Positions 41,507-60,188 of a stretch of DNA of 64,000 bases are shown here, in pieces. The DNA comes from Antedon mediterranea. Its lineage: Eukaryota > Animalia > Echinodermata. The notes below the pieces were generated by a model that was not told the origin of the DNA, ran no database searches, and saw only the letters and a list, made by a program, of their open reading frames with translations. The translations under genes were made by a program, and so were the position numbers. Location of the stretch: assembly GCF_964355755.1 (NCBI RefSeq), contig NC_092676.1, forward strand, positions 26,740,871 to 26,804,870, given 5' to 3'. Every line of letters begins with the position of its first letter. The stretch's first letter is position 1.

Positions 41507-43186
41507 TTATTTTTGTCTGTCCATTTCATCCTTCATAGCTGGGATAAGACCATCCCTAAACGCGATGTCAAGCAGCTCTTGACTACTTTCAACTTTGGGA
41601 TTTTGTCTTCCGGCCCAAATCAAGAAGTGTCTGAACTCATACCAGTCAATCATGCCATCTTGGTCCATATCCATAGCTTTTAAGCCTTGTTGGCTGTCTT
41701 CACAGCGATAGCATCCGAAGTATGGCGCCATAAAACCGATATAAAAATGGTCAAAGGTCAAACGATTATCTACCTTGCTGCCATGTCTTCCATCCCATTC
41801 ATCCCAAGATTTCTTAATCTCATCTATGAGGGTGTTAATGTATGGAGAGTTCTTGTTATCCTGTGCGATGATTCCGGCCATCTCATTTGTCAACTTTCCA
41901 CCAGCTTGATCAAACAACATGGCAAGTCCTACTTTACTGTTATATTCTTCCTTTCTGCCATCTGAAGCATTTTTCAACATCTGCTCCTTCATCTTTCCTG
42001 CCATTTCAAGAGTAAATTGTGGATCTTCACCAAACACATCATTTAGTTTTATCAGTATCATATCTGCATTCGCCATGTTTGAAATTCTAACTTCTTGTTC
42101 AATTCCGAAGAATTTGGCCATGTTAAATCCACCCTGGGCTGTAGGATCTGAGAAAATGAAGCCGAACACCAAGTCAGTTGCCCTTTCACCGTAGATTGGT
42201 TGCTTAGGATTTGGCTTTTTACCAGTGACTGCTTTGGTGACGTTGATAGCTGCTTTTCTGAGATATTCACAGTTGTATTGTTTCAATACTTTTGTGTTTC
42301 CAAGTCTGATCAAGTTCAAAATGGCAGTACAAGTATCGGCATGGCCAAGTGCAGCGCCCTCTATGCATAAGCCTGCCCACATGCCTGTAGCACCTGATGC
42401 AAGAACCTCCAGGTTGGCTGCATGCATTACACCCCACTGCTCGTGCTGGTGGAACAAAAGTTGTCCATCTTTCCATCCACATCGTTCCATCTCTTTCTTA
42501 ACGGCATGTGTCCAAGCTCCTAGCTGCTCTGGCATAACAGCACCAAGATCTTCAAATGCTAAACCGAGAATTCTTTCTTCCTTAGGAAGACTGGAGAGAT
42601 AGTTGACAACATGTCTGACACGTTCAGGATACTTAATCATAGTTGTGGAGAAATCTCTGAAGTTGACTAAAATTAATGAATCTTTGGAAAGATTAGCTCG
42701 AATCCAGTCGATTTTTTCTTTGAAATACTTGCAAACTTCATCCATGTTCATCTTATTATAATCAATCTTGTAATACATCAGGTCAAATTCGAGGAACACG
42801 TTATTTATGCCAAACTCTTTACATTTCAACATTCCAATTGGGATGTCAGGCTGAGGAACTTTATCAACTATCTTCTCCCACAGTTCTGAGAAGGCAAACG
42901 CATTTGATAGGTCTTCACCCTTTGCATTTAGTTCTTCCAAAAACAGATCTCCAATTCTTGTCTGATGGTTGAAAGATTCCACGATGAAGTATTTAAACCT
43001 GCATTTCTTAATCTCTTCATAGATTGCTCGCTTGTTCTCGATAGTGTGTGCCTTTAACGAAGCTACAGTCGTCTCTCGCAAAGAGTTGTCAAGAACAAAG
43101 AGCTCCATGTTCTTCAATCTCTCATGATCCTTGTTAACTGCAGTCATTTTTTTTTCAATGTTTTCATGAAATTTAGCAGAACTCAT
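41507..43186 (-). CDS. DRE-TIM metallolyase-like barrel + EF-hand protein, copy 1 (559 aa)
   Basis: Uninterrupted ORF. LDNSLRE (cf. DSTLREG/DTTLRDG), FHQHEQWG (cf. HxHNDxG), GLCIEGAALGHADT (cf. GLGERAGNA); canonical EF loop DMDQDGMIDWYE preceded by a degenerate EF hand. Confidence 0.9.
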   Translation of the reverse strand: MSSAKFHENIEKKMTAVNKDHERLKNMELFVLDNSLRETTVASLKAHTIENKRAIYEEIKKCRFKYFIVESFNHQTRIGDLFLEELNAKGEDLSNAFAFSELWEKIVDKVPQPDIPIGMLKCKEFGINNVFLEFDLMYYKIDYNKMNMDEVCKYFKEKIDWIRANLSKDSLILVNFRDFSTTMIKYPERVRHVVNYLSSLPKEERILGLAFEDLGAVMPEQLGAWTHAVKKEMERCGWKDGQLLFHQHEQWGVMHAANLEVLASGATGMWAGLCIEGAALGHADTCTAILNLIRLGNTKVLKQYNCEYLRKAAINVTKAVTGKKPNPKQPIYGERATDLVFGFIFSDPTAQGGFNMAKFFGIEQEVRISNMANADMILIKLNDVFGEDPQFTLEMAGKMKEQMLKNASDGRKEEYNSKVGLAMLFDQAGGKLTNEMAGIIAQDNKNSPYINTLIDEIKKSWDEWDGRHGSKVDNRLTFDHFYIGFMAPYFGCYRCEDSQQGLKAMDMDQDGMIDWYEFRHFLIWAGRQNPKVESSQELLDIAFRDGLIPAMKDEMDRQK

Positions 43187-43415
43187 GATTGACTAGCTGA
43201 AAAAAAAGAGTAGTGTTTGTTCACCTACTGACAGATCTACTTTAATTTAAATTTTCCCTAAATGACTAGAGCTTTTTGATTGTTGTGCATTGATTTGCAT
43301 CCACAATTTCTATAACTAGTTTTCAACAGGTTTTATCTTGATAATGTCATAGTTTTGTTTGACAATAATGATTATCAAATATTTTGAACCATGCTAAATT
43401 GTACATCTCAGTAAC

Positions 43416-43613
43416 CAGTGGTGTAATGGCTATGAGCGCTCACTGGCTAAACTCAGGGGCCCCGGATCTTATGGGGCCCCTGAGGAGTGTCCAGAGGAAA
43501 AAGCAGACATTCAAATATGTCGGAAAAGGCTAGAATCACCCGATGCCTCCAGCGTTGGAGGGCCACTTGGGGTTCCTAAGCCAGGGGCCTCAGGTCTCTC
43601 CATTACGCCACTG
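43416..43613. mobile_element. hAT-like MITE, 198 bp
   Basis: TIR CAGTGGTGTAATGG/CCATTACGCCACTG; 8-bp TSD TCAGTAAC/TCGGTAAC (7 of 8 match). Confidence 0.85.
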
Positions 43614-43968
43614 TCGGTAACATAACACAAAAAAGAATACCTTAGTTTTACTTTTTACTTGACTCTAAAAGTATGTAATAACTTCACTTCAAGAATTTCT
43701 ATATTAAGAAAGAAATACAAAATTCTAAAGTGTCTAATTCTAAGTATCGCTGCACATATTTTAAGATGCATACCTTTATGAAGCAATTAAAATTAATATA
43801 TATATTACAGATACAATAATCTACCTTACTTACTTTTAAATTGTTGCAGACGTTTGACTGAATTAAGTGCTATTGCAAAATGTATAGACTTCCAGGTCCT
43901 ATTGGTACTGACTCTTCACAGTGTCCTATAGTCTTGTCATCAATGATGCTCATGTCCGGTATGAACTG

Positions 43969-44007
43969 CTTTTATAACTAAATGTTATCTCTTATCTCTC
44001 TTATCGT
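43969..44007 (-). promoter_or_regulatory. Putative promoter of copy 1: TATA box with three adjacent GATA sites
   Basis: CTTTTATAAC (TATAAAAG on minus) then GTTATCTCTTATCTCTCTTATCG; downstream donor-like sites at ~43830 and ~43640 suggest 5' UTR exons. Confidence 0.45.
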
Positions 44008-44097
44008 ATAAAGGCATTGAACAGAAGGGTTTGTTTGCTAAGCAATTTAGATAAACATCAGAATGTCTGATTTAGTTTGTCCAACGTCATCGGAGTT

Positions 44098-44500
44098 CAG
44101 TTGAATGACCACCGCCACCAAGGTTTAGTTGAATGACCACCTCCACCAGGGTTTAGTTGAATGACCACCGCCACGAGAGTTTAGTTGAATGACCACCGCC
44201 ACTAAGGTTTAGTTGTATGACCACCGCCACCAGGGTTTTAGTTGTATGACCACCATCACCATGTTTAAATGAATGATTACCGTCACCAGGGTTTAGTTGA
44301 ATGACCACCGCCACCAGAGTTTAGTTGAATGACCACCTCCACCAAGGTTTAGTTGTATGACCACCGTCACCATGTTTAAATAACTTACCACCGCCCCTAG
44401 GGTTTAGTTGAATGACCACCGCCACCAGGGTTGAGATGAATGACCACCGTCATGTTTAAATGAATGACTACCGTCACCAGGGTTTAGTTGAAGGACCACT
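44098..44500. repeat. 28-bp minisatellite (TTAGTTGAATGACCACCGCCACCAGGGT), ~14 degenerate units
   Basis: Period 28 visible. Confidence 0.95.
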
Positions 44501-45821
44501 AGGCTTCTTTTGAATCACCATTTCTTGCCTGGTTTTATTGAAACATGGTTTTACATTCTACCCATTTTTCATGAACAAAACTAAAATCTAAATTCCACTT
44601 CTCTGCATTCAAAAAATTGGGTGATATTAGAGGTGAAAAGTTGAACCCAGGTTAATATACTACAATTGTGTTTACTATAGTTTATGTGCAGCAAATCACA
44701 TTACACTGTCTGATTGACATAGACAAACGTCATCAACTGTCAACATGCCTAATATTTGGTTCAATTCATAACTTTATTATGACAATTACTTGTTATTGAG
44801 TGTCAAAACCAGTGTCATAACCAGTGTCATAACCAGTGTCATAACCAGTGTAAACAGCTTTAGTATCGTCGTATATCGTGCGTTTATAAGTATCATATAT
44901 GAGTAAAAAACTCAAGTTAATTAATTATACTATAATATTTAATATTATTCACCGACCTATACTTGTTTACATAAAAAAAAATTGACAAAAAAAGTGTGAT
45001 GTGCCCAAATATGGTAGTGATATGACATCATCGTAATGTGTAGCTGTGGTTAGCATGCTTGCCTTCAATCCCACTGTCCAGGGTTTTAAATCCTGACCTA
45101 GTACCACTCCCAAAGCCTCAAATTAAACTTAGTTTATAAGCATGGTAAAATACTTTATCCATCCTTTAATTCACGATTTCCGTATGAATAATGTCTAATG
45201 CTACTAGACACACCTTTAATGTTCACCGTTTCAATTTATGTTTTGACTGACTATCTATATTATAATAGCACTAACCCAAAATGTGTTACTCTGTCTCCCC
45301 TTAAATCGTACAACAGATACTCTGTCTGTTTCAGATTATTATTCATTATTTATAAAGCGTATTTCCAGAAGATCTGTACAGAGAGACTTTTTAACAGAAC
45401 CACATACAACAAAAATTAAATAAAAATGCAACTTAGGGAACACATGCGTTTTGAGATGTTTTTTAAAAAGACCTTTTCCTCTTTGTCCATTCGGCTATAG
45501 AACAGCACATTTTCAGGAAAAATTTGTTTTTTAGACATCTGGAAACCTCTGCAAGGTATTCCAGTACAGGTAATTATATTATACCAGCAGATACCATAAT
45601 ACAGTATACCACATTACCACATTTACACTTAAAGAGGAAAATATTTATCGGCGCATATGGCTCATTAGTTTCAGTATTTCAGTAGCATAGTGGCTATATA
45701 GTTTAATTAGATTGGATTACAGTTAGTGTTAAGTAGGCCTTTCATTTTCCGAGTTTGTGACCCCTTGTAGATGGCTCAGGTCTCAGTAGCTTGTTATAAA
45801 AACAGTCCATATACTAAACTT

Positions 45822-46672
45822 TCATTTCATTATTTATTTGGTCTATTTGAGTATATACATAACAAAAAAAACTGAAATTGGGGAGACCAGGGTCAACCTA
45901 AGTGAACTGAATCACTGTAGCTGAGCCGGTTGACCCAACCCAAAAGACAGTTTAGACATAAAAGACAAAAGACAAAATACAGTTACAGCGAATCAAAATG
46001 AATATGAACTTTTCTAATGAAGGCTGATGGGCTTTCTAGGACTGCAGCATCAGTCAACGGTCTGGGAAGCTGGTCCCAGACACGGGGTAACCTGATTGTA
46101 ATAGAATGGAAAAAAGCCTGTGTCCTTGATGCTTGATGTCTGAAGCACAGGCGATCATTGTGACGGGTATTTATTAAAATACAGTCATGAACTGTGCTAC
46201 AGTCCAGAAACCCCACCAGAACCTTAAAACAAAATATAATAAGAAATTTATCTCTTCTAACGGACAAAGATGAAACAGAAAGCAAATTTAACCTCTCCTC
46301 AGAGCACATCTGTCCACGATGCTGTTTGAGAGCAAGACGAGTTGCTCTCCTATGGACCCCCTCAAGCTGATCTGACAAAGACTTCGTCCATGGAAACCAA
46401 GCAGGTTGCGCATACTCCAGACCAGGCAAAACAAGACTTTTGTACAAAGACAAAAATGCACTGGTCGAAGCATGTCCAGCCACACTCCAAACAAAGCCCA
46501 ACATACGTTTAGCTTTGGAAACATGGACATGGTCATCCCAGGTCAATTTTGAGTTAAAAATAACACCAAGGTATTTAAAAGATGTCACCGGACTAATATG
46601 AGAGTCAGACAAAAGGTATTTAGACAACTGTCTGTTACGTGAACGTGTGACATGCAGGACATTCGTCTTCAT
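45822..46672 (-). mobile_element. 5'-truncated LINE 3' fragment (CR1/L2-group-like)
   Basis: FKYLGVIF...LYKSLVLPGLEYA...LEGVHRRATR...RLPRVWDQLP; tail CAAATAAATAATGAAATGAAA. Confidence 0.85.
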
Positions 46673-47126
46673 CCCATGACATCATCACACCTCCCATGAC
46701 ATCATCACACCTCCCATGACATCATTACACCTCCCATGACATCATCACACCTCCCATGACATCATCACACCTCCCATGACATCATTACACCTCCCATCAC
46801 ACCTCCCATGACATCATCACACCTCCCATGACATCATCACACCTCTCATGACATCATTACACCTCCAATAACATCATCACACCTCCCATGACATCATCAC
46901 ACCTCCCATGACATCATTACACCTCCCATGACATCATCACACCTCCCATGACATCATCACACCTCCCATGACATCATTACACCTCCCATGACATCATCAC
47001 ACCTCCCACGACATCATCACACCTCTCATGACATCATTACACCTCCAATAACATCATCACACCTCCCATTATATCATCACACCTCCCATGACATCATCAC
47101 ACCTTCCATGACATCATCACACCTCA
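46673..47126. repeat. 20-bp minisatellite (CCCATGACATCATCACACCT), ~22 copies
   Basis: Directly visible; abuts the truncated 5' end of the LINE. Confidence 0.97.
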
Positions 47127-48079
47127 CTTTATAGTCAATTTTTCAAATCATTGTCAATTGTCAACTACATTAATTACTAGTGACCTCATGAAATAAATCA
47201 CATTAACATTAATGTTTTTATTGTGGATTTAATAATATGAAGATTAACAAATAACTAAACTGAAAAGTTGCTAAAAATAACTACATCGCTATACTAATAA
47301 CTAAATATAACAAGAAATATTTCTTACAAAAAACGCCGCGTAACTTTTTGACTGGTCAGTTGTAAGAACAATCTTCATTAATCTAATAATGCCCTTTGTA
47401 TTTTGTAAAAAATAAATAGACATTGACTTATTATCAATCAACTTTTTGTGTATTTATTTATGTGGATTTCGTGAAAAGATATTTATTATATTAATAGTAA
47501 TACTGATTAATTAATTTGAAACGATACGAGAGGAATCTGTATGATAAAGCTTCTTAATGAGATACATACACATCAAAGATAGTTCTTTAATTATGAATTA
47601 CATGCCCATTTTTCACTAGTTAATTATATACTATAAATACACAATACATTTTTAATAATTTATGGAAAAAATGTTTTTTTTACCATGGAAATGTGTAACA
47701 AAATAAAAATGTGTTGATTAATCGCAAAAATACACAAACTAATAGTTATTAAATTGTAAATCACATCATGCCCATTTTTTTAATATAAAAATGTTATCAG
47801 TACAAATGCAAACAACATTTAATTGTGCTTTACACAAAAATAAATCACATCACCAAAAGCGCTATAAATGAATTTAACTTATTCCTCTATTAATTATTTA
47901 GTTACTACAAATGCAAAGAAATCAAACTGTTGGTTAGAAACTTCTATTAGAGAACCATTTATAAATCAATCAATAAAATAAATTTTATTCCATTAAAATG
48001 AAACATTTTGGTTAGAGTATATCATCAGAAGTAGAGAACTCAAAATAGGCCTAATCCTAATTAATAGTCATGTTTTCCC

Positions 48080-49759
48080 TTATTTTTTTTTATTCATTTC
48101 ATCATTCATAGCTGGGATAAGACCATCTCTAAAGGTGATGTCAAGCAGCTCCTGACTTGTTTTAACTTCAGGATGTTGTCTGCCAGCCCATATCAGGAAG
48201 TGTTTAAACTCAAACCAGTCAATCATGCCGTCTTGGTCCATATCCATAGCTTTCAAGCCTTGTTGGCTATCTTCGCAGCGATAGCAACCAAAGTACGGTG
48301 CCATAAAGCCGTTATAGAAATGGTCAAAGGTCAGTTGGTTATCTACCCTGCTGCCACCTCTTCCGTCCCATTCATCCCAAGATTCCTTAATCTCATCTAC
48401 GAGTGTGTTGATGAAGGAAGAATTCTTGGTACCCTCTGCAATGACGTCGGCCATCTCTTTTGTCAACTTCCCACCAGCTTGATCAAACAACATGGCAAGT
48501 CCTACTTTACTGTTATATTCTTCCTTTCTGCCATCTGAAACATTTTTCAACATCTGATCTTTCATCTTTCCTGCCATTTCAAGAGTAAATTGTGGATCTT
48601 CTCCAAACACATCTTTTAGTTTCATCAGTACCATATCTGCATTCGCCATGTTTGTAATTCTAACTTCTTGTTTCATTCCAAAGAATTCGGCCATATTGAA
48701 TCCTCCCTGGGCCGTAGGATCTGAGAAAATGAATCCAAACACCAAGTCAGTTGCCCTTTCACCGTAGATTGGTTGCTTAGGATTTGGCTTTTTACCACCA
48801 GTGGCAGCTTTGGTGACTCTGATAGCTGCTTTTCTGAGATATTTGCAGTTGTATTGTTTCAAGACTTTTGTGTTTCCAAGTCTGATCAAGTTCAAGATGG
48901 CAGTACAAGTATCGGCATGGCCAAGTGCAGCGCCCTCTATGCATAAGCCTGCCCACATGCCTGTAGCACCTGATGCAAGGACTTCCAGGTTAGCTGAATG
49001 CATTAAACCCCACTGCTCGTGCTGGTGGAACAAAAGTTGTCCATCATTCCATCCACATCTTTCCATCTCTCTCTTGATAGCAAGTGTCCAAGCTCCTAGC
49101 TGCTCTGGCAGTACTGCACCAAGATCTTCATATGCTAAACCCAGGATTCGTTCTTTTTTAGGAAGACTGGAGAGATAGTTGACAACATGTCTGACACGTT
49201 CAGGATACTTCATCATGGTTGTGGACAAATCTCTAAAGTTGACCAAAATCAATGAATCTTTGGAAATATTTGCCCGAATCCAGTCGATCTTTTCTTTAAA
49301 ATACTTGCAAACTTCATCCATGTTCATCTTATTATAATCAATCTTATAATACATCAGGTCAAACTCAATGAACACGTTCTTTATGCCAAACTCTTTACAT
49401 TTCAACATTCCAATTGGGATGTCAGGCTGAGGAACTTTATCAACAATCTTCTCCCACAGTTCTGAGAAGGCAAACGCATTCGATAAGTCTTCACCCTTGG
49501 CAATAAGTTCCTTCAAGAACAGATCTCCAATTCTTGTCTGATGGTTGAAAGATTCCACGATGAAGTACTTGAACCCACATTTCTTAATCTCTTCATAGAT
49601 TGCTCGCTTGTTCTCAATAGTGTGCGCCTTTAAAGTAGCTACTGTTGTCTCTCGCAAAGAGTTGTCGAGAACAAACAGTTCCAAGTTCTTCAATCTCTCT
49701 TTGTCCTTGTTAACTGCGGACATTTTCTTTTCAATGTCGGAGTAAAATGGTAAACTCAT
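48080..49759 (-). CDS. DRE-TIM metallolyase-like + EF-hand protein, copy 2 (559 aa; possible 18-aa N-terminal extension via exon 50312-50265)
   Basis: Same motifs as copy 1; acceptor TTAG|TCAACCATG at 49765. Confidence 0.9.
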   Translation of the reverse strand: MSLPFYSDIEKKMSAVNKDKERLKNLELFVLDNSLRETTVATLKAHTIENKRAIYEEIKKCGFKYFIVESFNHQTRIGDLFLKELIAKGEDLSNAFAFSELWEKIVDKVPQPDIPIGMLKCKEFGIKNVFIEFDLMYYKIDYNKMNMDEVCKYFKEKIDWIRANISKDSLILVNFRDLSTTMMKYPERVRHVVNYLSSLPKKERILGLAYEDLGAVLPEQLGAWTLAIKREMERCGWNDGQLLFHQHEQWGLMHSANLEVLASGATGMWAGLCIEGAALGHADTCTAILNLIRLGNTKVLKQYNCKYLRKAAIRVTKAATGGKKPNPKQPIYGERATDLVFGFIFSDPTAQGGFNMAEFFGMKQEVRITNMANADMVLMKLKDVFGEDPQFTLEMAGKMKDQMLKNVSDGRKEEYNSKVGLAMLFDQAGGKLTKEMADVIAEGTKNSSFINTLVDEIKESWDEWDGRGGSRVDNQLTFDHFYNGFMAPYFGCYRCEDSQQGLKAMDMDQDGMIDWFEFKHFLIWAGRQHPEVKTSQELLDITFRDGLIPAMNDEMNKKK

Positions 49760-50720
49760 GGTTGACTAAAAAATAAAACATTAAATAAAACATATAAAGT
49801 CCATAATTTTTATTTTAATATTTAAAATGTGCTTGTGCTTTAAGAGCAGGTGAAGATCAGAAAGAAAGTTCTTCTTTTTTTTTTTTACCATAATTAAAAA
49901 CGCAAGTCAGTGAAATTTATCTGTAAGTTCAGCCTATTGCAATTTTCTATGACTTTGGAGTAAAAAAAATCTACAGATTTGAATTGTTGAGCTAATATAA
50001 ATGCAATTATCACTTTCTTGGATTTGTGGCTGTCATTAATTTTATTTCCCATAAGTACAACAGTTATTTACATAAATAAAATGACAACAATGTGTTAAAA
50101 GAGATCAAAATATGTAAAAATTGATTTAAGCATTGACCACCTAAGCAGTAGTAAACTATTTATATATAATGACAATTGAATTGTTTTTCAGTTCCAAGCT
50201 AACTGATATAGCAATATATAAAATCTAAATTAATTTAGCTTCTTTTACAGGAAAAAAACTTTACCTTAGGTTTCTTTCCAACTTGATCTTTTGGCTGAGA
50301 TTTTCTAAACATTTCTGCTCACCTATGGTTAAATTTCTCCTATAAATACAATTGTGTTTGCATAAATAACTTATTAATAACTCAACTACCTTCATTTTTC
50401 AACTCTATTTGTTTTAAAAAGTTTTTTAATTTGCTTTGTGGATGAATTAGCAATTATAAAAAGGGTATTGTGAAACTTTGAAAATAATCCCATGGTCTTA
50501 AATCCCTTTTAATTTAACTATTGTTTTTGAGAGTAATATATTGTAGTATAAATGTGGCGTTGGTTTGTATATTAAACATATTTTAAGTTTTACTAAAGTA
50601 AGTTTTCAAAACTCCCAAGAGTTTTGTAATACCCTTTTATTTTACAAATGCAGTTATGTTGGAAATTATTAACCTGACTGCCATAAATTTTCAACTGTCT
50701 AATAATAGTTTGTTTTAAAT

Positions 50721-51472
50721 TATTATTGGTTATCGCACTTATATTCCCCTTGTTATTGTCAGGATCTTTTTTTTTATTTTTCTATGTTCTTCTTTCTTTC
50801 CACGAATTTTGTTGCGCGTGTATCTCTAAATCTTCTCAACATAACATTGTATAACTTAATCAGAAGATTGACCTCTATCTGAAGATGTCGTAATAAGGTT
50901 TTCAGTCTTGTCCGAGTTGCGCAGCGTAAGTTACACGCGATTTTATGAATTTCAATGATTGATCATAGATTAAAAACTAAAAGTCATTTTGTATTGACAC
51001 TTGCTGAAAATTTAACTCACTCAAAATTGATTAGAAATTAATTTTGCGCATTTTGAAATTTTAAATGCGCGTGCGCGCGTAACTTCTTGTGAAACATGCC
51101 ATTTTTAATCCGTAGAAAGTTTGCCCCTGATATGACTTAAATTTTGTCAAAGTGTCAATACTAAATGACTTTTGGTTTTTAATCTATGTTCAATCATTGA
51201 AATTCATAAAATTGCGCGTAAGTCACGTTGCGCAACTATGACGTCATTCAAAAATAGGAGGTGCACAACTTCACGTAAATGCCCATATGTTGTCAAAGTT
51301 ATGAAATGTTATGTTTACACATTTTAGAGAAACGCGATCCACAAAAAGGAAGGATGGAAACGAGAATAATACAGAAAAAAAATGTTGATCTCATACAATA
51401 ACAAGGAGTTATCCGCTTGGTATACCAAGCGGATAACTAATTATCCGCTTGGTATACCAAGCGGATAACTAA
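50721..51472 (+). mobile_element. Helentron/DINE-like non-autonomous element
   Basis: Subterminal IR CCTTGTTATTGT/ACAATAACAAGG; 3' palindrome AGTTATCCGCTTGGTATACCAAGCGGATAACT (duplicated); ~90-bp internal IR; absent from the paralogous site at ~56270-56305. Confidence 0.7.
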
Positions 51473-51690
51473 TAATGTGCAGTCCTTTATATTAGCTTTA
51501 GAATTCAAGTATTTTCTCTACCATTATAAAATAGCTAAAACTAATTGTGATGGAATGATTGCATTGTATAATTGTTTATTAATTATTATTAAAGTAAAAC
51601 AAAAACTTGTCTGAAGTTTGTCTCCTTCAATGTTTAAACTAGTTCAAACCAGTTTGCACTACAACAAAACTTCCCTTCTCTTTGACTTAA

Positions 51691-52292
51691 AGACCCCTTC
51701 CCTGCAAATTTGGACGTTTTTTGGAAAATAATACATATATATCACTTTAAAAACATTAAACCATGTCATTTTTTGTCTTAAATGTACGTTTTATGGTAAA
51801 TTATGATAAAAAGTGAGAAACAATGCACTACCTAAGTAGCTCCCGGCGATCGACCTCTCGTGGACGGTCTTAGGCCTAGCCTAGCCTAGGCTTAGTTTTG
51901 TAGGCCTAGCTGGTAAACATCGGTAACGTACGAACATCGTACGCTAGCTATATACCTAGCCTGACGTTGTATAGTTGCTGCATTAATTGTCTTTCTATTT
52001 TTGCAAAACCCGGTATTTTCGCTGAAAAGTTAGGAGTCTTTCATTAGTTTTGGCCTCACGATCGATCGAAAAGTGGGCGAATTACAGGTGAAAAACAAAA
52101 ATATCAATCCGCGCGCAATGCATTTTGGGATTTATAGCGGGCCGCTATAATTATTAGAATCGACTTATTTTTCACATTTGTAACCGTTTAAAGACGAACA
52201 AAGTTATCGCAATAGGACCATATAGTATTATTTTTACATTAAATATAGTTTGTGATCTTAAATTAGATCTAAAAAACGTAGGGAAGGGGGCT
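51691..52292. mobile_element. Non-autonomous TTAA-targeting DNA transposon (Kolobok-like), 602 bp
   Basis: TTAA|AGACCCCTTCCCTGC ... GTAGGGAAGGGGGCT|TTAA; empty paralogous site TTTGACTTTAAATTTATC at ~56517-56534. Confidence 0.88.
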
Positions 52293-53754
52293 TTAAAATT
52301 TATCCAACTTTACTTATTCTTGACCGCTTGACTAACAAATTGTGCTAATAACTTACAGTAAACTCCCAAGAGAATGAACCTATTGATTCCCCCTCTCACC
52401 CCATCATTTTAATCTTACCTGTAAAACTGTTGTCCTAGAAGGAATATTCTTCTGTGTGCAAGTCCAATTCCAACTACCAGAGTAGAAGACTTACTTTCAC
52501 TGTTGCTTAAAATTAAAATGGGATCAATATAAATCTTGATGGATTGTGTTATAAAAAGTTGTTTTGTTAACTTTTATAAGCATGGTATAATAGTTACTCT
52601 CTAATTTGACACAACAGTTAGAAATCTTCTTTATTTAATGAATATGCCCATTAACCAATCAACGAGTCTCTTGGAGGTCTGTAATGTATTGTTATAGCCT
52701 GTATCAGGGCAATCTTTGGTTAAATTCGTTGATTGCTTTTAATCATCTTAGCATTGTAGTTTTTTTTTTCTTGCAGTAAATATACTTTAATGGAACAGGG
52801 TCGGTGGAGCGCACCCTCTTTTGTTTTCCATTTCATAAATTCTCTTAGTATTTCATTGTTGCAAGTTAAGAGCTCTACTTACATATCCATGTAATCTTTG
52901 GTATATATTGTGTAAATTCGTTGAGTGCTTTTAATCATCTCAGCATTGTAGTTTCTTCTTTTTATTTTATTTTTTTTGCAGTAAATATACCTTAATGGAA
53001 CAGGGTCAGCAAAGCTCACCATCTTTTGTTTGACCACTCTTTCATAAATCCTCTTCACATTTCATATTTTTTAAGTTAAGGCATCTACTTACCAAGCGAC
53101 TATAAATCCTTTTAATTGCCAACCATTATCTGCTTTTCCATAATGTTCATGTATGTACATATTGTGTTTTTTTTTACTAGGTTTATCAAGTATAAAATAT
53201 ATATTATAATAATTTGATATTTTGTAAATTGTATTGTATTGTAATTGTAAATACGAACACTTTAGAAATATTTGCAAATCAACCATTAAGCCGCAGAACT
53301 TTTGAAATTAGTAAGGTTGTTTTAGGTGCTAAAAAATTTACTACATCACTATACTAATTATAAATGAATTTAATCACTACAAATGCAAACAACATTTAAT
53401 TGTGCTTTAGACAAAAATAAACCACGTCACCAAAAGCGCTATAAATGAATTTAACTTTAATAACTCTATTAATTATTTAGTTACTACAAATGCAAACAAA
53501 ATCATTGTGCAAAACCACTTAAGAACTATAAATGAATTTAACTTATTCCTCTATTACTGTAACTATTTAGTTACTACAGATGCAAAGAAATCAAACTGTT
53601 GGTTAGGAACTTCTATTAGAGAACCATTTATAATCAATCACTAAAATAAATTTTATTCCATCAAAATTAAACATTAGGTTAAAGTATATCATCAGAAGTT
53701 GTGGAAAAGGGAACTCAAAATAAGCTTAATCCCCATTAGTAGTCATGTTTTCCC

Positions 53755-55434
53755 TTATTTTTTTTTATTCATTTCATCATTCATAGCTGGGATAAGACCA
53801 TCTCTAAACGCAATGTCAAGAAGCTCTTGACTACTTTCAACTTTGGGATGTTGTCTTCCAGCCCAAATCAAGAAGTGTCTAAACTCAAACCAGTCAATCA
53901 TGCCATCTTGGTCCATATCCATAGCTTTCAAGCCTTGTTGGCTGTCTTCGCAGCGATAGCAACCAAAGTACGGCGCCATAAAGCCATTATAGAAATGGTC
54001 AAAGGTCAGTTGGTTATCTACCCTGCTGCCACCTCTTCCGTCCCATTCATCCCAAGATTCCTTAATCTCATCTATGAGTGTGTTGATGAAGGAAGAGTTC
54101 TTGGTACCCTCTGCAATAACGTCGGCCATCTCTTTTGTCAACTTCCCACCAGCTTGATCAAACAACATGGCAAGTCCTACTTTACTGTTATATTCTTCCT
54201 TTCTGCCATCTGAAACATTTTTCAACATCTGCTCCTTCATCTTTCCTGCCATTTCAAGTGTAAATTGTGGATCTTCTCCAAACACATCTTTGAGTTTCAT
54301 CAGTACCATATCTGCATTCGCCATGTTTGTAATTCGAACTTCTTGTTTCATTCCAAAGAAATCGGCCATGTTGAATCCCCCCTGGGCTGTGGGATCTGAG
54401 AAAATGAATCCAAACACCAAGTCAGTTGCCCTTTCACCGTAGATTGGTTGCTTAGGATTTGGCTTTTTACCACCAGTGGCAGCTTTGGTGACCCTGATAG
54501 CTGCTTTTCTGAGATATTTGCAGTTGTATTGCTTCAAGACTTTTGTGTTTCCAAGTCTGATCAGATTCAAAATGGCAGTACAAGTATCGGCATGGCCAAG
54601 TGCAGCGCCCTCTATGCATAAGCCTGCCCACACACCTGTAGCTCCTGATGCAAGGACTTCCAGGTTAGCTGCATGCATTAAACCCCACTGCTCATGCTGG
54701 TGGAACAAAAGTTGTCCATCTTTCCATCCACATCTTTTCATCTCTTTCTTGATAGCAAGTGTCCAAGCTCCTAGCTGCTCTGGCAGTACTGCACCAAGAT
54801 CTTCAAATGCTAAACCAAGAATTCTTTCTTCCTTAGGAAGACTGGAGAGATAGTTGACAACATGTCTGACACGTTCAGGATACTTCATCATGGTTGTGGA
54901 CAAATCTCTAAAGTTGAGCAAAATCAGTGAATCTTTGGAAATATTTGCTCGAATCCAGTCAATCTTTTTTTTCAAATACTTGCAAACTTCATCCATGTTC
55001 ATCTTATTATAATCAATCTTATAATACATCAGATCAAACTCAATGAACACGTTCTTTATGCCAAACTCTTTACATTTCAACATTCCAATTGGGATGTCAG
55101 GCTGCGGAACTTTATCAACAATCTTCTCCCACAGTTCTGAGAAGGCAAATGCCTTGGACAGGTCTTCACCTTGTGCAATAAGTTCCTTCAAGAACAGATC
55201 TCCAATTCTTGTCTGATGGTTGAAAGATTCCACGATGAAGTACTTGAACCCACATTTCTTAATTTCTTCATAGATTGCCCGCTTGTTCTCGATAGTGTGC
55301 GCCTTTAGAGTAGCTACGGTTGTCTCTCGCAAAGAGATGTCGAGAACAAACAGTTCCAAGTTCTTCAATCTCTCTTTGTCCTTGTTAACTGCGGACATTT
55401 TCTTTTCAATGTCGGAGTAAAATGGTAAACTCAT
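53755..55434 (-). CDS. DRE-TIM metallolyase-like + EF-hand protein, copy 3 (559 aa)
   Basis: Closest to copy 2; first motif reads LDISLRE. Confidence 0.9.
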   Translation of the reverse strand: MSLPFYSDIEKKMSAVNKDKERLKNLELFVLDISLRETTVATLKAHTIENKRAIYEEIKKCGFKYFIVESFNHQTRIGDLFLKELIAQGEDLSKAFAFSELWEKIVDKVPQPDIPIGMLKCKEFGIKNVFIEFDLMYYKIDYNKMNMDEVCKYLKKKIDWIRANISKDSLILLNFRDLSTTMMKYPERVRHVVNYLSSLPKEERILGLAFEDLGAVLPEQLGAWTLAIKKEMKRCGWKDGQLLFHQHEQWGLMHAANLEVLASGATGVWAGLCIEGAALGHADTCTAILNLIRLGNTKVLKQYNCKYLRKAAIRVTKAATGGKKPNPKQPIYGERATDLVFGFIFSDPTAQGGFNMADFFGMKQEVRITNMANADMVLMKLKDVFGEDPQFTLEMAGKMKEQMLKNVSDGRKEEYNSKVGLAMLFDQAGGKLTKEMADVIAEGTKNSSFINTLIDEIKESWDEWDGRGGSRVDNQLTFDHFYNGFMAPYFGCYRCEDSQQGLKAMDMDQDGMIDWFEFRHFLIWAGRQHPKVESSQELLDIAFRDGLIPAMNDEMNKKK

Positions 55435-58400
55435 GGTTGACTGAAAAATAAAATATAAATTCCATAATTTTTATTTTAATAAAACATGCTTGTGCTTTAA
55501 GAGCAGGTGAAGTGCCCCTCACCCTTATTTATTTTTATAAAACCATAATTAAAAATGCAAGTCAGTGAAATTAATCTGGAAGTATTGCAATTTTCTTTGA
55601 CTTTGGAATAAAAAAAATTTACAGATTTGAATTGTTGAAATAATAAAAATGCAATTATCACTTTCTTGGATTTGTGTTTGTCATTAATTTTATTTTCCAT
55701 AAGTACAAAAGCTATAAATAAAATGACAATGTGTGAAAAGAGATCAAAATAAGTAAAAATTGACCACCTAAGCAGTAGTAAACTATTTATATATAATGAC
55801 AATTGAATTGTTTTTCAGTTCCAAGCTAACTGATATAGCAATATATAAAATCTAAATTAATTTTGCTTCTTTTACAGGAAAAAATGTGCTCACCTTCTGC
55901 CTATGATTAAATTTCTGCTATAAATAAAATTATATTCATATAATAACTTTATTAATAACTCAACTACCTTCAATTTTCAACTCTATTTGTTTTAAAAAGT
56001 CAAGTTTTTTTTATTTGCTTTGTGGATGAATTAGCAACATTATAAAAAGGGTGTTGTGAAACTTTGAAAATAATCCCATGGGCTTAAATCTCTTTCTAAT
56101 TAATTATTGTTTTTCAGAGCAATATATTGTTACTGAAGTAAGTTTTCAAAACCAACAACTCCAAAAAGTATTTTTTTAATACCCTTTTATTTTACAAATT
56201 GAGTTAGGTTGGAAATTATTAACCTGATTGCCATCAATTTTCAACTCTGTCTAACAATTGTTTTAAAGTATTCTGTTATTTGAAAAGGGTAAAAATAATT
56301 AGAAATAATGTGCAGTCCTTTAGCTTTAGAACTCAAGTCTTTTCTCTACCAGTATAAAATAGCTGTTTAAAACTAATTGTGATGGAAATGATTTTAAAAG
56401 CATTGTATAATTGTTTATTAATTATTAAAGTAAAACACAAACTTGTCTGAAGTTTGTCTCCTTCAATGTTTAAACTAGTTCAAACCAGTTTGCACTAAAA
56501 CAAAATTTCCCTTCTCTTTGACTTTAAATTTATCTAACTTTACTTATTCTTGACCGCTTGACCAACAAATTGTGCTAATACCAACAGAATGAACCAATGG
56601 ATTCCCCATCTTTTTAATCTTACCTGTAAATAAACTGTTGTCCTAGAAGGAATATTCTTCTGAAGTGCAATTTCTTATGTTTGATGACCAAGCACCAGAG
56701 TAGAAAATTTAAAGTGGATCAATATAAATCTTGATGGATTGTGTTATAAAAAGTTGTTTTTTCTTTCTTTTATAAGCATGGTATAATAGACAGGAAATCT
56801 TCTTTAATGTTTTAATGTCCATTAACCAATCAACGAGTCTCTTGGAGGTCTGTCATTAGTGTTATAGTCTGTATCAAGGCAATCTTTGGTCATATTGTAT
56901 AAATTCGCTTTTAAATGCTTTTAATCATCTTAGCATTGTAGTTTCTTTCTTTTTCTTTTTCTCGGCAGAGAGCACCCTCTTTTGTTTGACCATTCTTTCA
57001 GAAATTCCCTTGATATTTCTTTTTTTCAAGTTAAGACCTCTACTTATCCATGTAATCTTTGGTCTATATTGTGTAAATTTGTTAAGTTCTTTTAATCATC
57101 TCAGCATTGTAGTTTCTTCTTTTTATTTTATTTTTCTTGCAGCAAATATACCTTAATGGAACAGGGTCGGCGGAGCGCACCCTTTTTTGTTTGACCATTC
57201 TTTCATAAATCCTCTTGATATTTCATTTTTCCAAGCTAAGACCTCCATTTACCAGGTGACTATAAATCCTTTTAATTGCCAACCATTGTCTGCTGTTCCA
57301 TAATGTGCATGTATGTACATATTGTGTTTTTATTACTAGGTTTATCAAGTATAAAATATGTATGGATACCACACGCAATAATTATATTATCATAATGATT
57401 TGATATTTTTGTATAATGTGTAATGTAAAAACAAATGCTTAGAAATATTTGCAAATCAACCATTAAGCCGCAGACCTTTTGAAATTAAGAAGGTTGTTTT
57501 TAAAGTCTTTTGCACCTACAGTAACTGAGCCTAAGACTTCACGGTTACTCACCATCACAGCCGCGCAGCATTAAAGCTAGAGAAGTTGAGGTGCGAAAGT
57601 GTAGTAGCACCATACAAAATCAACTAGTTTATTGATTGAGATTCCAGAATCAAGAAACATTTTGTATTCCTCCAGTCCACACATAGTAGAGTATTATAAA
57701 TTAAGTTGTTTTAAATTTCAATGTAAATTGGCTAGATGCCTCTAAAGTTGAATTGAATAGAAAGGAAAGGATACAATATAACATGTGTTCAGTTTTTATA
57801 CAATATTTCATTTATTGTGTAATACGGTAACCCAAGTGAAATTTTCCAAATAATAATAAATTTAATATTCTTTAGCTTTTATATTATGACTATATTTTGA
57901 AAAAACAAAGTTAATATAATTGCAATCTTTGTTAGGTTAACATAAAATATATGAGAAAAAAAAATTAGTCAAAAATGAATTGCCATCATTGGCGGATTCA
58001 GGATTTCAAAATAATATACTTTTAAAAAAAATCAACCATAAAAACTGAATAATGATGAATATATCCTAATTTGACCATTTAAATACAAAATAGTATTTAT
58101 TCTAATGTATTATATTTATAAAATAATAATTGTTTTGTTTTGCAATGTCTATCGGTGAAGGATTTAAAAAGAAGGCCAAGAAAATAAAATAAGAATAATA
58201 TTTACAGTTAGACAGCCAAAAAAAATTATCTTTACTTTAAAGTTTAAATAAATATGTAAATAATTTAATACTTATGTTAGAACAAGTATAGTTATTAGGC
58301 AAATGTAAACAGAACAAGTATAATTATTAGACAATGTAAACAAAGTGTTTTACATTGTTTTATTAGGCAGTAAGGGAAATATATTTTCAGAAAGTACGAT

Positions 58401-58439
58401 GAGATGACAGAAATAAAAACAAGTGCTGCAGCTTCTATT

Positions 58440-60188
58440 TTATTCTGAGTTTGCAGCCTTATTTTTATTTCTGTCCATTTCATCCTTCATAGCTGGAATA
58501 AGACCATCCCTAAACGCGATGTCGAGCAGCTCCTGACTTGTTTTAATTTCAGGATGTTGTCGCCCAGCCCATATCAGGAAGTGTTTAAACTCAAACCAGT
58601 CAATCATGCCATCTTGGTCCATATCCAAAGCTCTCAAGCCCAATTGACTGTCTTCGCAGCGATAGCATCCAAAGTACGGCGCCATGAAACCAATATAGAA
58701 GTTGTCAAAGGTCAGTTGGTCATCCACCACACCATCTCTTCCGTCCCATTCATTCCAGGTTTCCTTGATCTCTTCAATAAGAGTGTTGATATGAGGCAAA
58801 TTCTTATTACCTTCAGCAATGATTCCTGCCATCTTTTCAGTCAGTTTCCCGCCAGCCTGATCAAACAACATGGAAAGCCCTAACTCACTGTTATACTCTT
58901 CCTTTCTGCCATCCGCAGCATTTTGTACAATCTGTTGTTTCATCTGTCCAGCAATCTCCAGCGTGAACTGTGGGTCTTCTCCAAAAACATCATTTAATTT
59001 CATCAGAATCATTTCTTCATTTGCCATAGTTGTGATTCTAACTTCACGCTCTACTCCCAAGAATTCTGCCATGTCAAATCCACCATTTGCCGTGGGGTCC
59101 GAAAAGATGAAACCATATACCAAGTCGGTTGCTCTGTCACCATAAATCGGTTGCTTAGGGTTTGGCTTCATACCAGTGACAGCTTTGGTAACATTGATGG
59201 CTGCCTGCCTAACATATGGACAGTTATATTGCTCCATAACAGTCTTGTTTCCAAGTCTGATAAGGTTTAGAATGGCTGTACAGCTATCAGCATGACCAAG
59301 TGCAGCGCCCTCTATGCATAAGCCTGCCCACATCCCAGTAGCGCCTGCTCCAAGTGCTTTTAGGTTAGCTGAATGCATTAAACCCCACTGCTCGTGCTGA
59401 TGGAACAAGAGTTGTCCATCTTTCCATCCACATCTTTCCATCTCCTTTTTCATAGCATTTATCCATGCAGCTAACTGTTCTGGCATACCAGCACCGAGAT
59501 CTTCAACTGCTAAACCAAAGATTCTTTCTTCTTTCTGAAGGCTGGACAGGTAGTTGATGACATGTCCAACACGTTCTGGATACTGAATCATTGATGTTGT
59601 GAAATCTCGGAAGTTGATCACAATCATAGAATCTTTGGAAAGATTAGCTCGAATCCAGTCGATTCTCTCCTTTAACAACTTGCAAACTTCATCCATGTTC
59701 ATCTTATTATAATCAATCTTATAATACATCAGGTCAATCTCAAGGAACACGTTCTTTATGCCAAACTCTTTACATTTCAACATTCCAATTGGGATGTCAG
59801 GCTGAGGAACTTTATCCACAATCTTCTCCCACACTTCAGAGAAGGCAAATGCCTTGGACAGGTCTTCACCCTGGGCAATAAGTTCCTTCAAGAACAGATC
59901 TCCAATTCTTGTCTGATGGATGAAAGATTCCACCATGAAGTATTTGAATCCACATTTCTTAATTTCTTCATAGATTGCCCGCTTGTTCTCGATAGTGTGT
60001 GCTCTAAGAGAAGCTACGGTTGTCTCTCGCAAAGAGTTGTCAAGAACAAACAGTTCCATGGTCTTCAGCCGCTCAAGCTCCACATTTACCTCATGCATGC
60101 CTTTTTTAACATCTGAACAAAACGTCGGTTTTAGCGATGATATGGAACGTTGAAGTTTTTTCTCCAACTTGCTGAGAATTTCGCTCAT
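58440..60188 (-). CDS. DRE-TIM metallolyase-like + EF-hand protein, copy 4 (582 aa, most divergent, longer N-terminus)
   Basis: Same motifs; acceptor TTTTTATAG|AAAATCATG just upstream. Confidence 0.9.
   Translation of the reverse strand: MSEILSKLEKKLQRSISSLKPTFCSDVKKGMHEVNVELERLKTMELFVLDNSLRETTVASLRAHTIENKRAIYEEIKKCGFKYFMVESFIHQTRIGDLFLKELIAQGEDLSKAFAFSEVWEKIVDKVPQPDIPIGMLKCKEFGIKNVFLEIDLMYYKIDYNKMNMDEVCKLLKERIDWIRANLSKDSMIVINFRDFTTSMIQYPERVGHVINYLSSLQKEERIFGLAVEDLGAGMPEQLAAWINAMKKEMERCGWKDGQLLFHQHEQWGLMHSANLKALGAGATGMWAGLCIEGAALGHADSCTAILNLIRLGNKTVMEQYNCPYVRQAAINVTKAVTGMKPNPKQPIYGDRATDLVYGFIFSDPTANGGFDMAEFLGVEREVRITTMANEEMILMKLNDVFGEDPQFTLEIAGQMKQQIVQNAADGRKEEYNSELGLSMLFDQAGGKLTEKMAGIIAEGNKNLPHINTLIEEIKETWNEWDGRDGVVDDQLTFDNFYIGFMAPYFGCYRCEDSQLGLRALDMDQDGMIDWFEFKHFLIWAGRQHPEIKTSQELLDIAFRDGLIPAMKDEMDRNKNKAANSE

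What the first reader, a model, noticed from the sequence alone, without database searches (positions are those of the whole stretch)
41507..60188. Four-gene array of DRE-TIM metallolyase / EF-hand fusion enzymes: candidate Ca2+-regulated specialised-metabolism system in an animal
Seen: four intact same-strand ORFs sharing LD[N/I]SLRE, F[I/M]VESF, FHQHEQWG, GLCIEGAALGHAD and a C-terminal EF-hand pair. Established: DRE-TIM enzymes (isopropylmalate, homocitrate and citramalate synthases, HMG-CoA lyase, pyruvate carboxylase CT domain) use an R-[D/E] helix and HxH to bind a divalent metal and make or break C-C bonds. Animals lack the Leu/Lys synthases, and none of the classic members I know carries EF hands. 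Inference: an uncharacterised enzyme family condensing or cleaving acyl-CoA/2-oxoacid substrates under Ca2+ control, amplified here for a lineage-specific product.
Basis: partly seen in the sequence, partly recalled or inferred. Interest (0 to 1): 0.9.

Follow-up and report, generated by a model that had tools for sequence, protein, structure and literature searches.

The report
Crinoid ilborin array, rewired active site
Four intact neighbouring genes in what is likely a feather-star genome encode ilborins, a family named in sponges in 2022 and predicted to be calcium-controlled metal enzymes; they lack the residues their closest relatives use to activate acetyl-CoA, so they likely run a different, still untested reaction.

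Summary
In detail: four intact single-exon ORFs on the minus strand, 80-89% identical, under purifying selection (dN/dS 0.10-0.17). The nearest named relatives are from the crinoid Anneissia (80-84%). The predicted fold is a homocitrate/isopropylmalate-synthase-type DRE-TIM module (Z about 30) plus an EF-hand lobe with one canonical Ca2+ loop, not two.

The family is already published as ilborin (Borisenko 2022, PMC8864356), with the same architecture, the same R-E/HxH argument and the same Ca2+-regulation idea. It is a major protein of sponge flagellated cells and has no biochemistry. Multiple copies are common across the family, which argues against a lineage-specific product.

Two things are added here. 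(1) The acetyl-CoA-activating set is replaced: the β5 Glu is Arg in 369 of 373 rows, and the Gln, Thr, GER motif and general-base His are gone. The enzyme is therefore likely not a Claisen synthase; I favour an aldol, retro-aldol or decarboxylating reaction on a dicarboxylic 2-oxo acid. (2) Crinoid copies group with ctenophore copies (100/100), and the species-tree arrangement is rejected (AU p=0.0001). This points to horizontal transfer or hidden paralogy.

Verdict: new member of a known, biochemically uncharacterised family.

The parts
41507..43186 (-). Ilborin copy 1, 559 aa, single coding exon
   Evidence: AlphaFold model pLDDT 91, pTM 0.79
42152..43105 (-). Copy 1 DRE-TIM barrel (about residues 28-345): R37, E38, H246, H248, H282; family-specific E133, N175, R177, D178, E212, W270
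   Evidence: VIA Z 28.5-30.8 to citramalate, homocitrate, isopropylmalate and MAM synthases; HHalign 98%; counts
41858..42151 (-). Copy 1 subdomain I/II equivalent (about residues 346-443)
   Evidence: Full model aligns 21-443 to homocitrate synthase 6ktq, Z 28.6; C-terminal model residues 360-439 match 6ktq 309-390, Z 5.8, rmsd 3.6, 69 aligned, a middling score
41597..41848 (-). Copy 1 EF-hand lobe (about residues 447-530), non-canonical first loop, C492-x-x-C495 linker
   Evidence: Profile hit to centrin E 2.7e-8; VIA Z up to 7.5, nearly all listed rows EF-hand proteins
41636..41671 (-). Copy 1 canonical Ca2+-binding loop, residues 506-517
   Evidence: D1, D3, D5, G6, E12 read from the sequence; conserved in 305 of 344 rows
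48080..49759 (-). Ilborin copy 2, 559 aa; polyT-AG acceptor ends at 49765, 6 nt before the ATG
   Evidence: a contig of run X9 stops at 49765 with 121 letters unlaid
53755..55434 (-). Ilborin copy 3, 559 aa; youngest pair with copy 2 (dS 0.17); carries N34I at a position that is Asn in 351 of 373 rows
58440..60188 (-). Ilborin copy 4, 582 aa, most divergent (dS 0.76-0.95); acceptor ends at 60194
   Evidence: a contig of run X9 stops at 60196 with 56 letters unlaid while DNA run X1 continues
47862..56272 (.). Tandem duplication unit: 47862-50724 matches 53526-56272 (88.5% over 2.9 kb, gene plus flanks); 52293-53323 matches 56523-57500 (78%)
   Evidence: self-blastn
44095..47125 (.). Spacer between copies 1 and 2: 28-bp and 20-bp minisatellites and a 229-aa ORF (45983-46672, minus strand) that looks to me like a LINE C-terminal fragment but has no Pfam hit; not part of the system

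Best explanation
The four genes are tandem ilborin paralogues in what is likely a crinoid genome; each is predicted to be a cytosolic divalent-metal DRE-TIM enzyme that likely makes or breaks a C-C bond of a small dicarboxylic 2-oxo(hydroxy) acid without activating acetyl-CoA, and is likely gated by one Ca2+ site. SHOWN: intact copies, purifying selection, conservation pattern, loss of the Claisen residues in alignment. PREDICTED: a homocitrate-synthase-type barrel plus subdomains I/II, with an EF lobe where LeuA carries its leucine-sensing domain. INFERRED mechanism: E38, H246 and H248 (perhaps H282, which sits at the Asn of GERxGN) hold Mn/Zn/Co. The substrate's 2-oxo-carboxylate chelates the metal and R37 stabilises the enolate. 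R177, in the place of the Claisen Glu, would clamp a second carboxylate, and E133 or E212 would shuttle the proton. That gives an aldol, retro-aldol or beta-decarboxylation. Ca2+ at loop 506-517 would move the single long helix 434-465, which runs from subdomain II into the EF lobe, and so switch activity. My odds by step: ilborin identity 0.95, active metalloenzyme 0.8, Ca2+ modulation 0.65, non-Claisen aldol/decarboxylase-type chemistry 0.5.
For: Ilborin identity: the paper's full-length HHblits hit, Hondaea A0A2R5GS87, is P0130 here, found at E 2.4e-161 by the window-based profile. The same species recur: Hydra, Nematostella, Dendronephthya, Stylophora, Acropora digitifera, Mnemiopsis. Architecture and length match. 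Fold: pLDDT 91; Foldseek best E 3.9e-13 to homocitrate synthase; VIA Z 28.5-30.8 for Claisen enzymes, 23.3 HMG-CoA lyase, 22.1 aldolase, about 19 carboxyltransferases, 14.3 or less for other barrels. Metal set kept: R37 357, E38 361, H246 370, H248 364, H282 365 of 373 rows. Claisen set lost (HHalign; panel of 33 LeuA/CimA/NifV-type proteins): LeuA Q17 (32/33) = V41; E141 (31/33) = R177 (369/373); T171 (32/33) = Pro or deleted; E234-R235 (33/33) = A-A/G/S; H300 (32/33) = a variable loop with any His in only 65 of 373 rows and none in the window copies; Y311 = F354. In MAM synthase the equivalents R89, Q93, E227, T257, H388 and Y399 form the catalytic site; H388A and E227A are dead (passages of PMC11532901; mapping to LeuA by constant residue offsets, my inference). 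The independent alignment to citramalate synthase 3ble also puts R177 on the YLED Glu. One DmpG aldolase likewise lacks the β5 Glu and the ER pair. New near-invariant polar residues: E133 366, N175 365, D178 372, E212 370, W270 368 of 373. Regulatory slot: two distant relatives carry cyclic-nucleotide-binding domains C-terminal to the catalytic module, with no EF-hand hit (P0201, P0218). Helix 434-465 is continuous in the model. dN/dS 0.10-0.17 for all six pairs.
Against: No activity, metal or Ca2+ binding has been measured for any member (the paper says functional studies lie ahead). Residue equivalences come from profile alignments at 12-18% identity. I could not inspect model coordinates, so convergence on one site is inferred from the fold match. 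Subdomains I/II and a basic pair R411/K412 (279 and 297 of 373) are retained, and these serve acetyl-CoA use in Claisen enzymes (recalled), so CoA chemistry with a relocated base is possible. The aldolase-type His four residues after the Arg (DmpG) is also absent (V41). Ilborin is a major SDS-PAGE band in sponge larval cells and about 20% of UMIs in one Amphimedon cell cluster, which is very high for a regulated enzyme. Bacterial neighbourhoods gave no pathway. The paper numbers the HxH as His205/207 against 246/248 here; I could not reconcile this without its supplements.
Confidence: 0.5

Rival explanations
1. Ilborins are acyl-CoA-dependent synthases or lyases after all (homocitrate-, citramalate- or HMG-CoA-lyase-like), with the general base moved to E133, E212 or H282 and R177 binding the substrate's distal carboxylate.
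For: Best structural matches are all Claisen enzymes and include subdomains I/II. R-E rather than R-D is shared with homocitrate synthase. A Gln two residues later (Q43) is present in 210 of 373 rows. R411/K412 are retained.
Against: Six Claisen fingerprint positions are replaced together. Q43 is absent from all four window copies. HMG-CoA lyase scores about 7 Z units lower.
Confidence: 0.27
2. Ilborin works mainly as an abundant non-catalytic protein of ciliated cells: a Ca2+/metal or metabolite buffer or a scaffold at the flagellar base, in the manner of enzyme-crystallins, with the pocket kept for ligand binding.
For: Very high abundance and apical ring-like localisation in choanocytes; loss of the canonical catalytic base; repeated duplication could serve dosage.
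Against: A full metal set plus five new polar pocket residues stay above 95% conserved from protists and bacteria to animals. Fusions to an alpha/beta-hydrolase, SnoaL and thioredoxin occur in distant relatives. These fit catalysis better.
Confidence: 0.15
3. The array was amplified in crinoids to make a lineage-specific product such as a pigment or feeding-deterrent precursor.
For: Four maintained copies; the crinoid copies differ from the family consensus at E70, Q43 and the β6 loop.
Against: No tailoring genes lie nearby; neighbours include a DNA polymerase delta exon, a GPCR and LINE fragments. Those sequence differences are shared with ctenophores. Multiple copies are usual in the family. 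A term search of the crinoid pigment paper PMC11414698 found no mention of EF-hand or isopropylmalate. Pocket residues are the same in all four copies.
Confidence: 0.08

Closest known systems
Ilborin (Halisarca dujardini S-antigen; Borisenko et al. 2022, PMC8864356)
   Same: TIM barrel plus C-terminal EF-hand pair with one canonical Ca2+ loop; Arg-Glu helix and HxH; about 560-610 aa; several paralogues per genome; same taxa; same Hondaea relative; ctenophore copies placed among cnidarian ones in both studies.
   Different: No crinoid is listed in the paper's tree legend (its echinoderms are Acanthaster and Asterias). In the text I read, the paper does not report the loss of the Claisen residues, the invariant R177/E133/E212, the subdomain II match or the cNMP variants. 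The window copies carry E70, lack Q43 and have a one-residue-shorter β6 loop than sponge copies.
Claisen-condensation DRE-TIM enzymes (homocitrate synthase 2ztj/6ktq, citramalate synthase 3ble, LeuA, MAM synthase 6e1j)
   Same: Barrel and subdomains I/II (Z 28.5-30.8), Arg + acidic metal ligand, HxH, a C-terminal regulatory slot.
   Different: Gln, β5 Glu, Thr, GER, general-base His and Tyr are replaced; EF lobe instead of an amino-acid-sensing domain; 12-18% identity.
4-hydroxy-2-oxovalerate aldolase (DmpG type) and HMG-CoA lyase
   Same: Same barrel and metal logic (Z 21-23); the one DmpG read here also lacks the β5 Glu and the ER pair.
   Different: No His four residues after the Arg; different C-terminal domains; lower structural scores.
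Unnamed bacterial cluster in the ESM Atlas ('putative Homocitrate synthase', 435 aa, 65 members, no common Pfam family)
   Same: TM 0.72/0.84 over residues 3-443 of the bacterial ilborin, with about twice the score of canonical synthases.
   Different: Too short to carry the EF lobe; sequences could not be fetched, so its active site is unchecked.

Membership tests
Ilborin | N-terminal aldolase-type TIM barrel (about 22-354) | tested here: met
Ilborin | C-terminal EF-hand pair with a single canonical Ca2+ loop | tested here: met
Ilborin | Arg-Glu helix and two metal His | tested here: met
   R37, E38, H246, H248 in all four copies; 357-370 of 373 rows
Ilborin | Full-length homology to the paper's members | tested here: met
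   Indirect: the paper's hit A0A2R5GS87 = P0130, E 2.4e-161; same named species. The Halisarca sequences themselves were not available.
Ilborin | Cytosolic, no signal peptide or membrane helix | not tested
   No predictor run; the model is a soluble fold starting with a charged helix.
Ilborin | Expression in flagellated or epidermal cells | not testable with these tools
   No tissue data available.
DRE-TIM metallolyase superfamily | (β/α)8 barrel closest to DRE-TIM structures | tested here: met
   Ranks 1-16 are all DRE-TIM, Z 18.8-30.8; next fold 14.3
DRE-TIM metallolyase superfamily | Invariant Arg, acidic metal ligand and HxH | tested here: met
DRE-TIM metallolyase superfamily | β2 Glu (LeuA E44; recalled as the E of 'DRE') | tested here: inconclusive
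   E in 30 of 33 panel proteins; family positions 68/69 are I/V, but window copies have E70 and the register is uncertain by one or two residues.
DRE-TIM metallolyase superfamily | Residues converge on one metal site | not testable with these tools
Claisen-condensation subgroup (IPMS/HCS/CMS/MAM) | Subdomains I/II after the barrel | tested here: met
Claisen-condensation subgroup (IPMS/HCS/CMS/MAM) | Gln four residues after the Arg | tested here: not met
   V41 in 346 of 373 against Q in 32 of 33
Claisen-condensation subgroup (IPMS/HCS/CMS/MAM) | β5 Glu (LeuA E141, MAM E227) | tested here: not met
   Arg in 369 of 373
Claisen-condensation subgroup (IPMS/HCS/CMS/MAM) | General-base His and Tyr of subdomain I (LeuA H300/Y311, MAM H388/Y399) | tested here: not met
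   Variable loop, any His in 65 of 373 rows, none in the window copies; Phe in 329 of 373
Claisen-condensation subgroup (IPMS/HCS/CMS/MAM) | D-T-x-G Thr and G-E-R-x-G-N | tested here: not met
   EDLG and GAALGH in the window copies
Aldolase subgroup (DmpG) | His four residues after the Arg | tested here: not met
   One DmpG sequence has His; the family has Val
Ca2+-regulated EF-hand enzymes | Ca2+ binding changes activity | not testable with these tools
   Needs assay; only the loop sequence and fold were checked.

The most novel reading that the evidence does not exclude
Ilborins are a fifth DRE-TIM subgroup: a synthase-type scaffold rewired (Glu to Arg, three His plus Glu metal site) for a new reaction and put under swappable second-messenger control (Ca2+ or cyclic nucleotide). 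The gene has moved horizontally among marine animals, and feather stars took their copy from the ctenophore lineage before expanding it.
Probability: 0.25. Interest if true: 0.75.

Novelty: new member of a known kind. Interest (0 to 1): 0.42.

Why it matters
Ilborin is among the most abundant proteins of sponge larval flagellated cells, yet I found no assay of it. The residue map redirects the obvious experiment: an acetyl-CoA/DTNB screen alone would likely come up empty, and R177, E133, E212 and H282 are specific mutational targets. If the chemistry is new, it adds a subgroup to a well-studied enzyme superfamily and a direct link from Ca2+ to metabolism in ciliated cells of marine animals. 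If the crinoid-ctenophore grouping reflects transfer, it is a rare animal-to-animal transfer of a non-mobile enzyme gene. The family, its architecture and the Ca2+ idea are already in print, which caps the novelty.

Tried and rejected
Contamination or assembly artefact: rejected. The window-encoded proteins lie on a 30.6-Mb contig, amid a DNA polymerase delta exon, a GPCR and LINEs. Anneissia has two homologues. Ten runs of four studies and three organism codes hold part of the stretch; study P1 may be the source, and organism C's share is only 0.09.

Expression: no RNA holder listed. X9 is only guessed to be RNA. Its contigs cover copies 2 and 4 and show little or no cover of copies 1 and 3, which is no evidence of silence. 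No joint across a 5'-UTR intron was listed, so splicing is not shown.

Bacterial operon as a guide to function: the GTDB pattern scan gave 2 loci from 33 pattern matches. There was no further member among 300 order relatives of G001, 200 family relatives of G002 or 400 phylum relatives of G002. The 24 best other loci checked were ordinary LeuA/CimA/HCS-type genes. There was no plasmid hit and no viral hit. None of 63 metagenome loci had gene-dense flanks (all 0.74 or less, against 0.87 and 0.94 for L001 and L002). The pattern scan did not return the cyanobacterial copies that the paper reports, so it is not exhaustive. L103 was fetched but not analysed.

Nesting of crinoids inside ctenophores, or of both inside Cnidaria: drawn by the trees but not established. 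AU tests do not reject cnidarian monophyly (p 0.147) or ctenophore monophyly (p 0.167).

My early idea that other echinoderms lack the gene: dropped, because the paper lists two sea stars.

Homodimer/CoA model: the complex predictor was not available. Foldseek on the C-terminal part alone gave no hit at E<=0.001. HHalign against a single LeuA was uninformative. No Rfam match in 38000-64000. No whole genome is held. Earlier scan findings: none. Casey 2014 (PMC4025573) is not held.
Full report
OBSERVATION. The four ORFs are real and intact: 41507-43186, 48080-49759, 53755-55434 and 58440-60188, all on the minus strand. They are 89, 89 and 80% identical to the first, with every quoted motif, and there is no further copy in the window. 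Each is one coding exon with a polyT-AG acceptor 6-10 nt before the ATG. Contigs of run X9, only guessed to be RNA, stop at 49765 and 60196 with 121 and 56 letters unlaid, while DNA run X1 continues past the second site. That fits spliced 5'-UTR exons but is one run and no joint was listed. Copies 2 and 3 share a 2.9-kb duplicated block. dN/dS is 0.10-0.17 for all six pairs. Copy 4 is 0.91-0.94 identical to copies 2 and 3 over alignment columns 75-175 against 0.75-0.85 in most other blocks, which suggests gene conversion. The host is inferred to be a crinoid: the nearest named proteins are from Anneissia japonica (80-84%). Other genes in the window include a DNA polymerase delta exon, a GPCR and LINE fragments.

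FOLD. Pfam and NCBIfam give only sub-threshold HMGL-like, EF-hand and citramalate-synthase hits. The AlphaFold model from 111 sequences has pLDDT 91 and pTM 0.79. Foldseek ranks homocitrate synthase first (E 3.9e-13). VIA gives Z 28.5-30.8 for citramalate, homocitrate, isopropylmalate and MAM synthases, 23.3 for HMG-CoA lyase, 22.1 for an aldolase, about 19 for carboxyltransferases and 14.3 for the next fold. The match to 6ktq runs to residue 443, so subdomains I/II are included. The C-terminal 200 residues folded alone (pLDDT 94) match 6ktq 309-390 (Z 5.8) and EF-hand lobes (Z up to 7.5); these are middling scores, but nearly all listed rows are EF-hand proteins. A deeper profile hits centrin at E 2.7e-8. 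Only the second loop is canonical (305 of 344 rows reaching it); position 12 of the first loop is mostly S/H/D/A/N. Helix 434-465 joins subdomain II to the lobe without a break.

WHAT IT IS. A search for homocitrate synthase with sponge and cnidarian terms returned Borisenko et al. 2022 (PMC8864356). I read the outline, parts 1-4 of 7 and methods 5.6; figures are not held and supplements were unavailable. It names ilborin: TIM barrel 22-354, EF-hand pair 458-540, one Ca2+ site, HHpred hits to 2ZTJ and 1YDN, Arg35/Glu36 and two His. It reports members in sponges, cnidarians, ctenophores, Macrostomum, two sea stars and two cyanobacteria, and proposes Ca2+-regulated energy metabolism. Its full-length HHblits hit A0A2R5GS87 is P0130 here, and six of its species recur in my hits. 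Ilborin is a major cytosolic protein of larval flagellated cells and sits apically in choanocytes; no function was assayed. 'Ilborin' and 'v1g246312' each occur in that paper only. 'DRE-TIM' with 'EF-hand' gave 0 papers, and 'HMGL-like' with 'EF-hand' gave one unrelated listing. The library lacks most subscription journals.

ACTIVE SITE. HHalign of 85 family sequences against 9, then 33, Claisen-type proteins gives 98-98.7%. Counts use the 373 of 463 held rows that cover 90% of the barrel; the set includes near-duplicates. Kept: R37 (357), E38 (361), H246 (370), H248 (364). Replaced, with panel counts: Q17 (32/33) by V41; E141 (31/33) by R177 (369); T171 (32/33) by Pro or a deletion; E234-R235 (33/33) by small residues; N238 by H282 (365); H300 (32/33) by a variable loop with any His in 65 rows; Y311 by Phe. 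The HMMER alignment to 3ble agrees on R177. Passages of PMC11532901 show that the MAM equivalents form the catalytic site, with His388 as general base; I mapped MAM to LeuA by constant offsets. The family also fixes E133, N175, D178, E212 and W270 at 365-372 of 373. So it keeps the metal-enolate core of DRE-TIM enzymes but fails the Claisen membership test. One DmpG aldolase also lacks the β5 Glu and ER but has a His where ilborins have V41. Against my reading: identity is only 12-18%, I could not see coordinates, and subdomains I/II and R411/K412 remain.

MECHANISM (inferred). A metal on E38/H246/H248, perhaps with H282, chelates a 2-oxo-carboxylate. R37 stabilises the enolate, R177 binds a second anion, and E133 or E212 moves the proton, giving an aldol, retro-aldol or decarboxylation. 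Ca2+ at loop 506-517 acts through helix 434-465. Support for a sensor slot: among 55 long relatives scanned, two have cNMP-binding domains and no EF-hand hit; others add alpha/beta-hydrolase (3), SnoaL (2), DM9 (3), PDZ, thioredoxin or extra EF-hands. One bacterial copy is followed by a cyclase-AAA gene, a single case.

RANGE AND ORIGIN. Named homologues come from sponges, anthozoans, Hydra, Sanderia, ctenophores, a thraustochytrid, diatoms, Synura and green algae. Two bacterial MAG loci have gene-dense flanks. Bacterial copies are rare: only the query genomes themselves among 301, 201 and 401 searched. The Atlas shows an EF-less-length bacterial cluster closer in structure than canonical synthases, which I could not fetch. 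Trees: FastTree on 212 rows (463 held, 372 long enough, unnamed rows thinned at 80%); IQ-TREE quick on 59; careful on 25 named rows (near-duplicate corals, copies 2 and 3 and all protists but Skeletonema left out). All join crinoid with ctenophore copies (100/100), inside a cnidarian group. Copy 1 is 56-64% identical to ctenophore copies and 45-53% to cnidarian and sponge ones. E70 is confined to these two groups among named rows, and a one-residue β6 deletion is shared with most of one cnidarian group. Forcing crinoids with that cnidarian group and without ctenophores costs 216 lnL (AU p 0.0001). Cnidarian and ctenophore monophyly are not rejected. I named these groups after seeing the first trees. 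The paper also found ctenophores among cnidarians and Macrostomum among sponges. Horizontal transfer is plausible (about 0.35), but hidden paralogy with many losses is open. Unnamed transcripts sister to the crinoids (P0006, P0017, P0018, P0024) could be other echinoderms, and I could not see where the paper's sea stars fall. No named sea star or urchin appears among the best 120 of 654 hits.

VERDICT. What is added is the active-site map and the crinoid-ctenophore grouping. New member of a known kind; interest 0.42.

Noticed in passing
L002 6528-6530: The Verrucomicrobiales copy has a stop codon at the position of the conserved Trp of the second EF-hand; the frame continues in register after it. 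Truncation or sequencing error.
   Followed up: partly
L001 1458-5531: An adenylate/guanylate cyclase-AAA ATPase gene starts 87 bp after the gammaproteobacterial ilborin on the same strand.
   Followed up: partly
P0201, P0218 (proteins): Distant relatives with cyclic-nucleotide-binding domains after the catalytic module and no EF-hand hit.
   Followed up: partly
window 41702-41713 (copy 1, residues 492-495): CxxC between the two EF-hands, Cys in 301 and 302 of 373 rows; possible redox switch or metal site. One relative is fused to thioredoxin (P0163).
   Followed up: no
window 58440-60188 against 48080-55434: Patches of high identity between copy 4 and the others (alignment columns 75-175 and 525-575) suggest gene conversion.
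   Followed up: partly
ESM Atlas row 3: A 435-aa bacterial cluster (65 members, no common Pfam family) with TM 0.72/0.84 to ilborin residues 3-443; possible sister family without the EF lobe.
   Followed up: partly
window 21250-21654 (+): Exon of DNA polymerase delta catalytic subunit.
   Followed up: partly
window 8601-9698 (-): Intronless rhodopsin-family GPCR.
   Followed up: partly
window 15128-16086, 16044-19864, 20497-21182: Long tandem repeat, LINE endonuclease/reverse-transcriptase fragments, and a short-period repeat open in several frames.
   Followed up: no
L032, L035, L037, L038, L051, L053: Some eukaryotic homologues have introns near residues 59 and 227, while the window copies and many other loci have unbroken coding sequence.
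   Followed up: no
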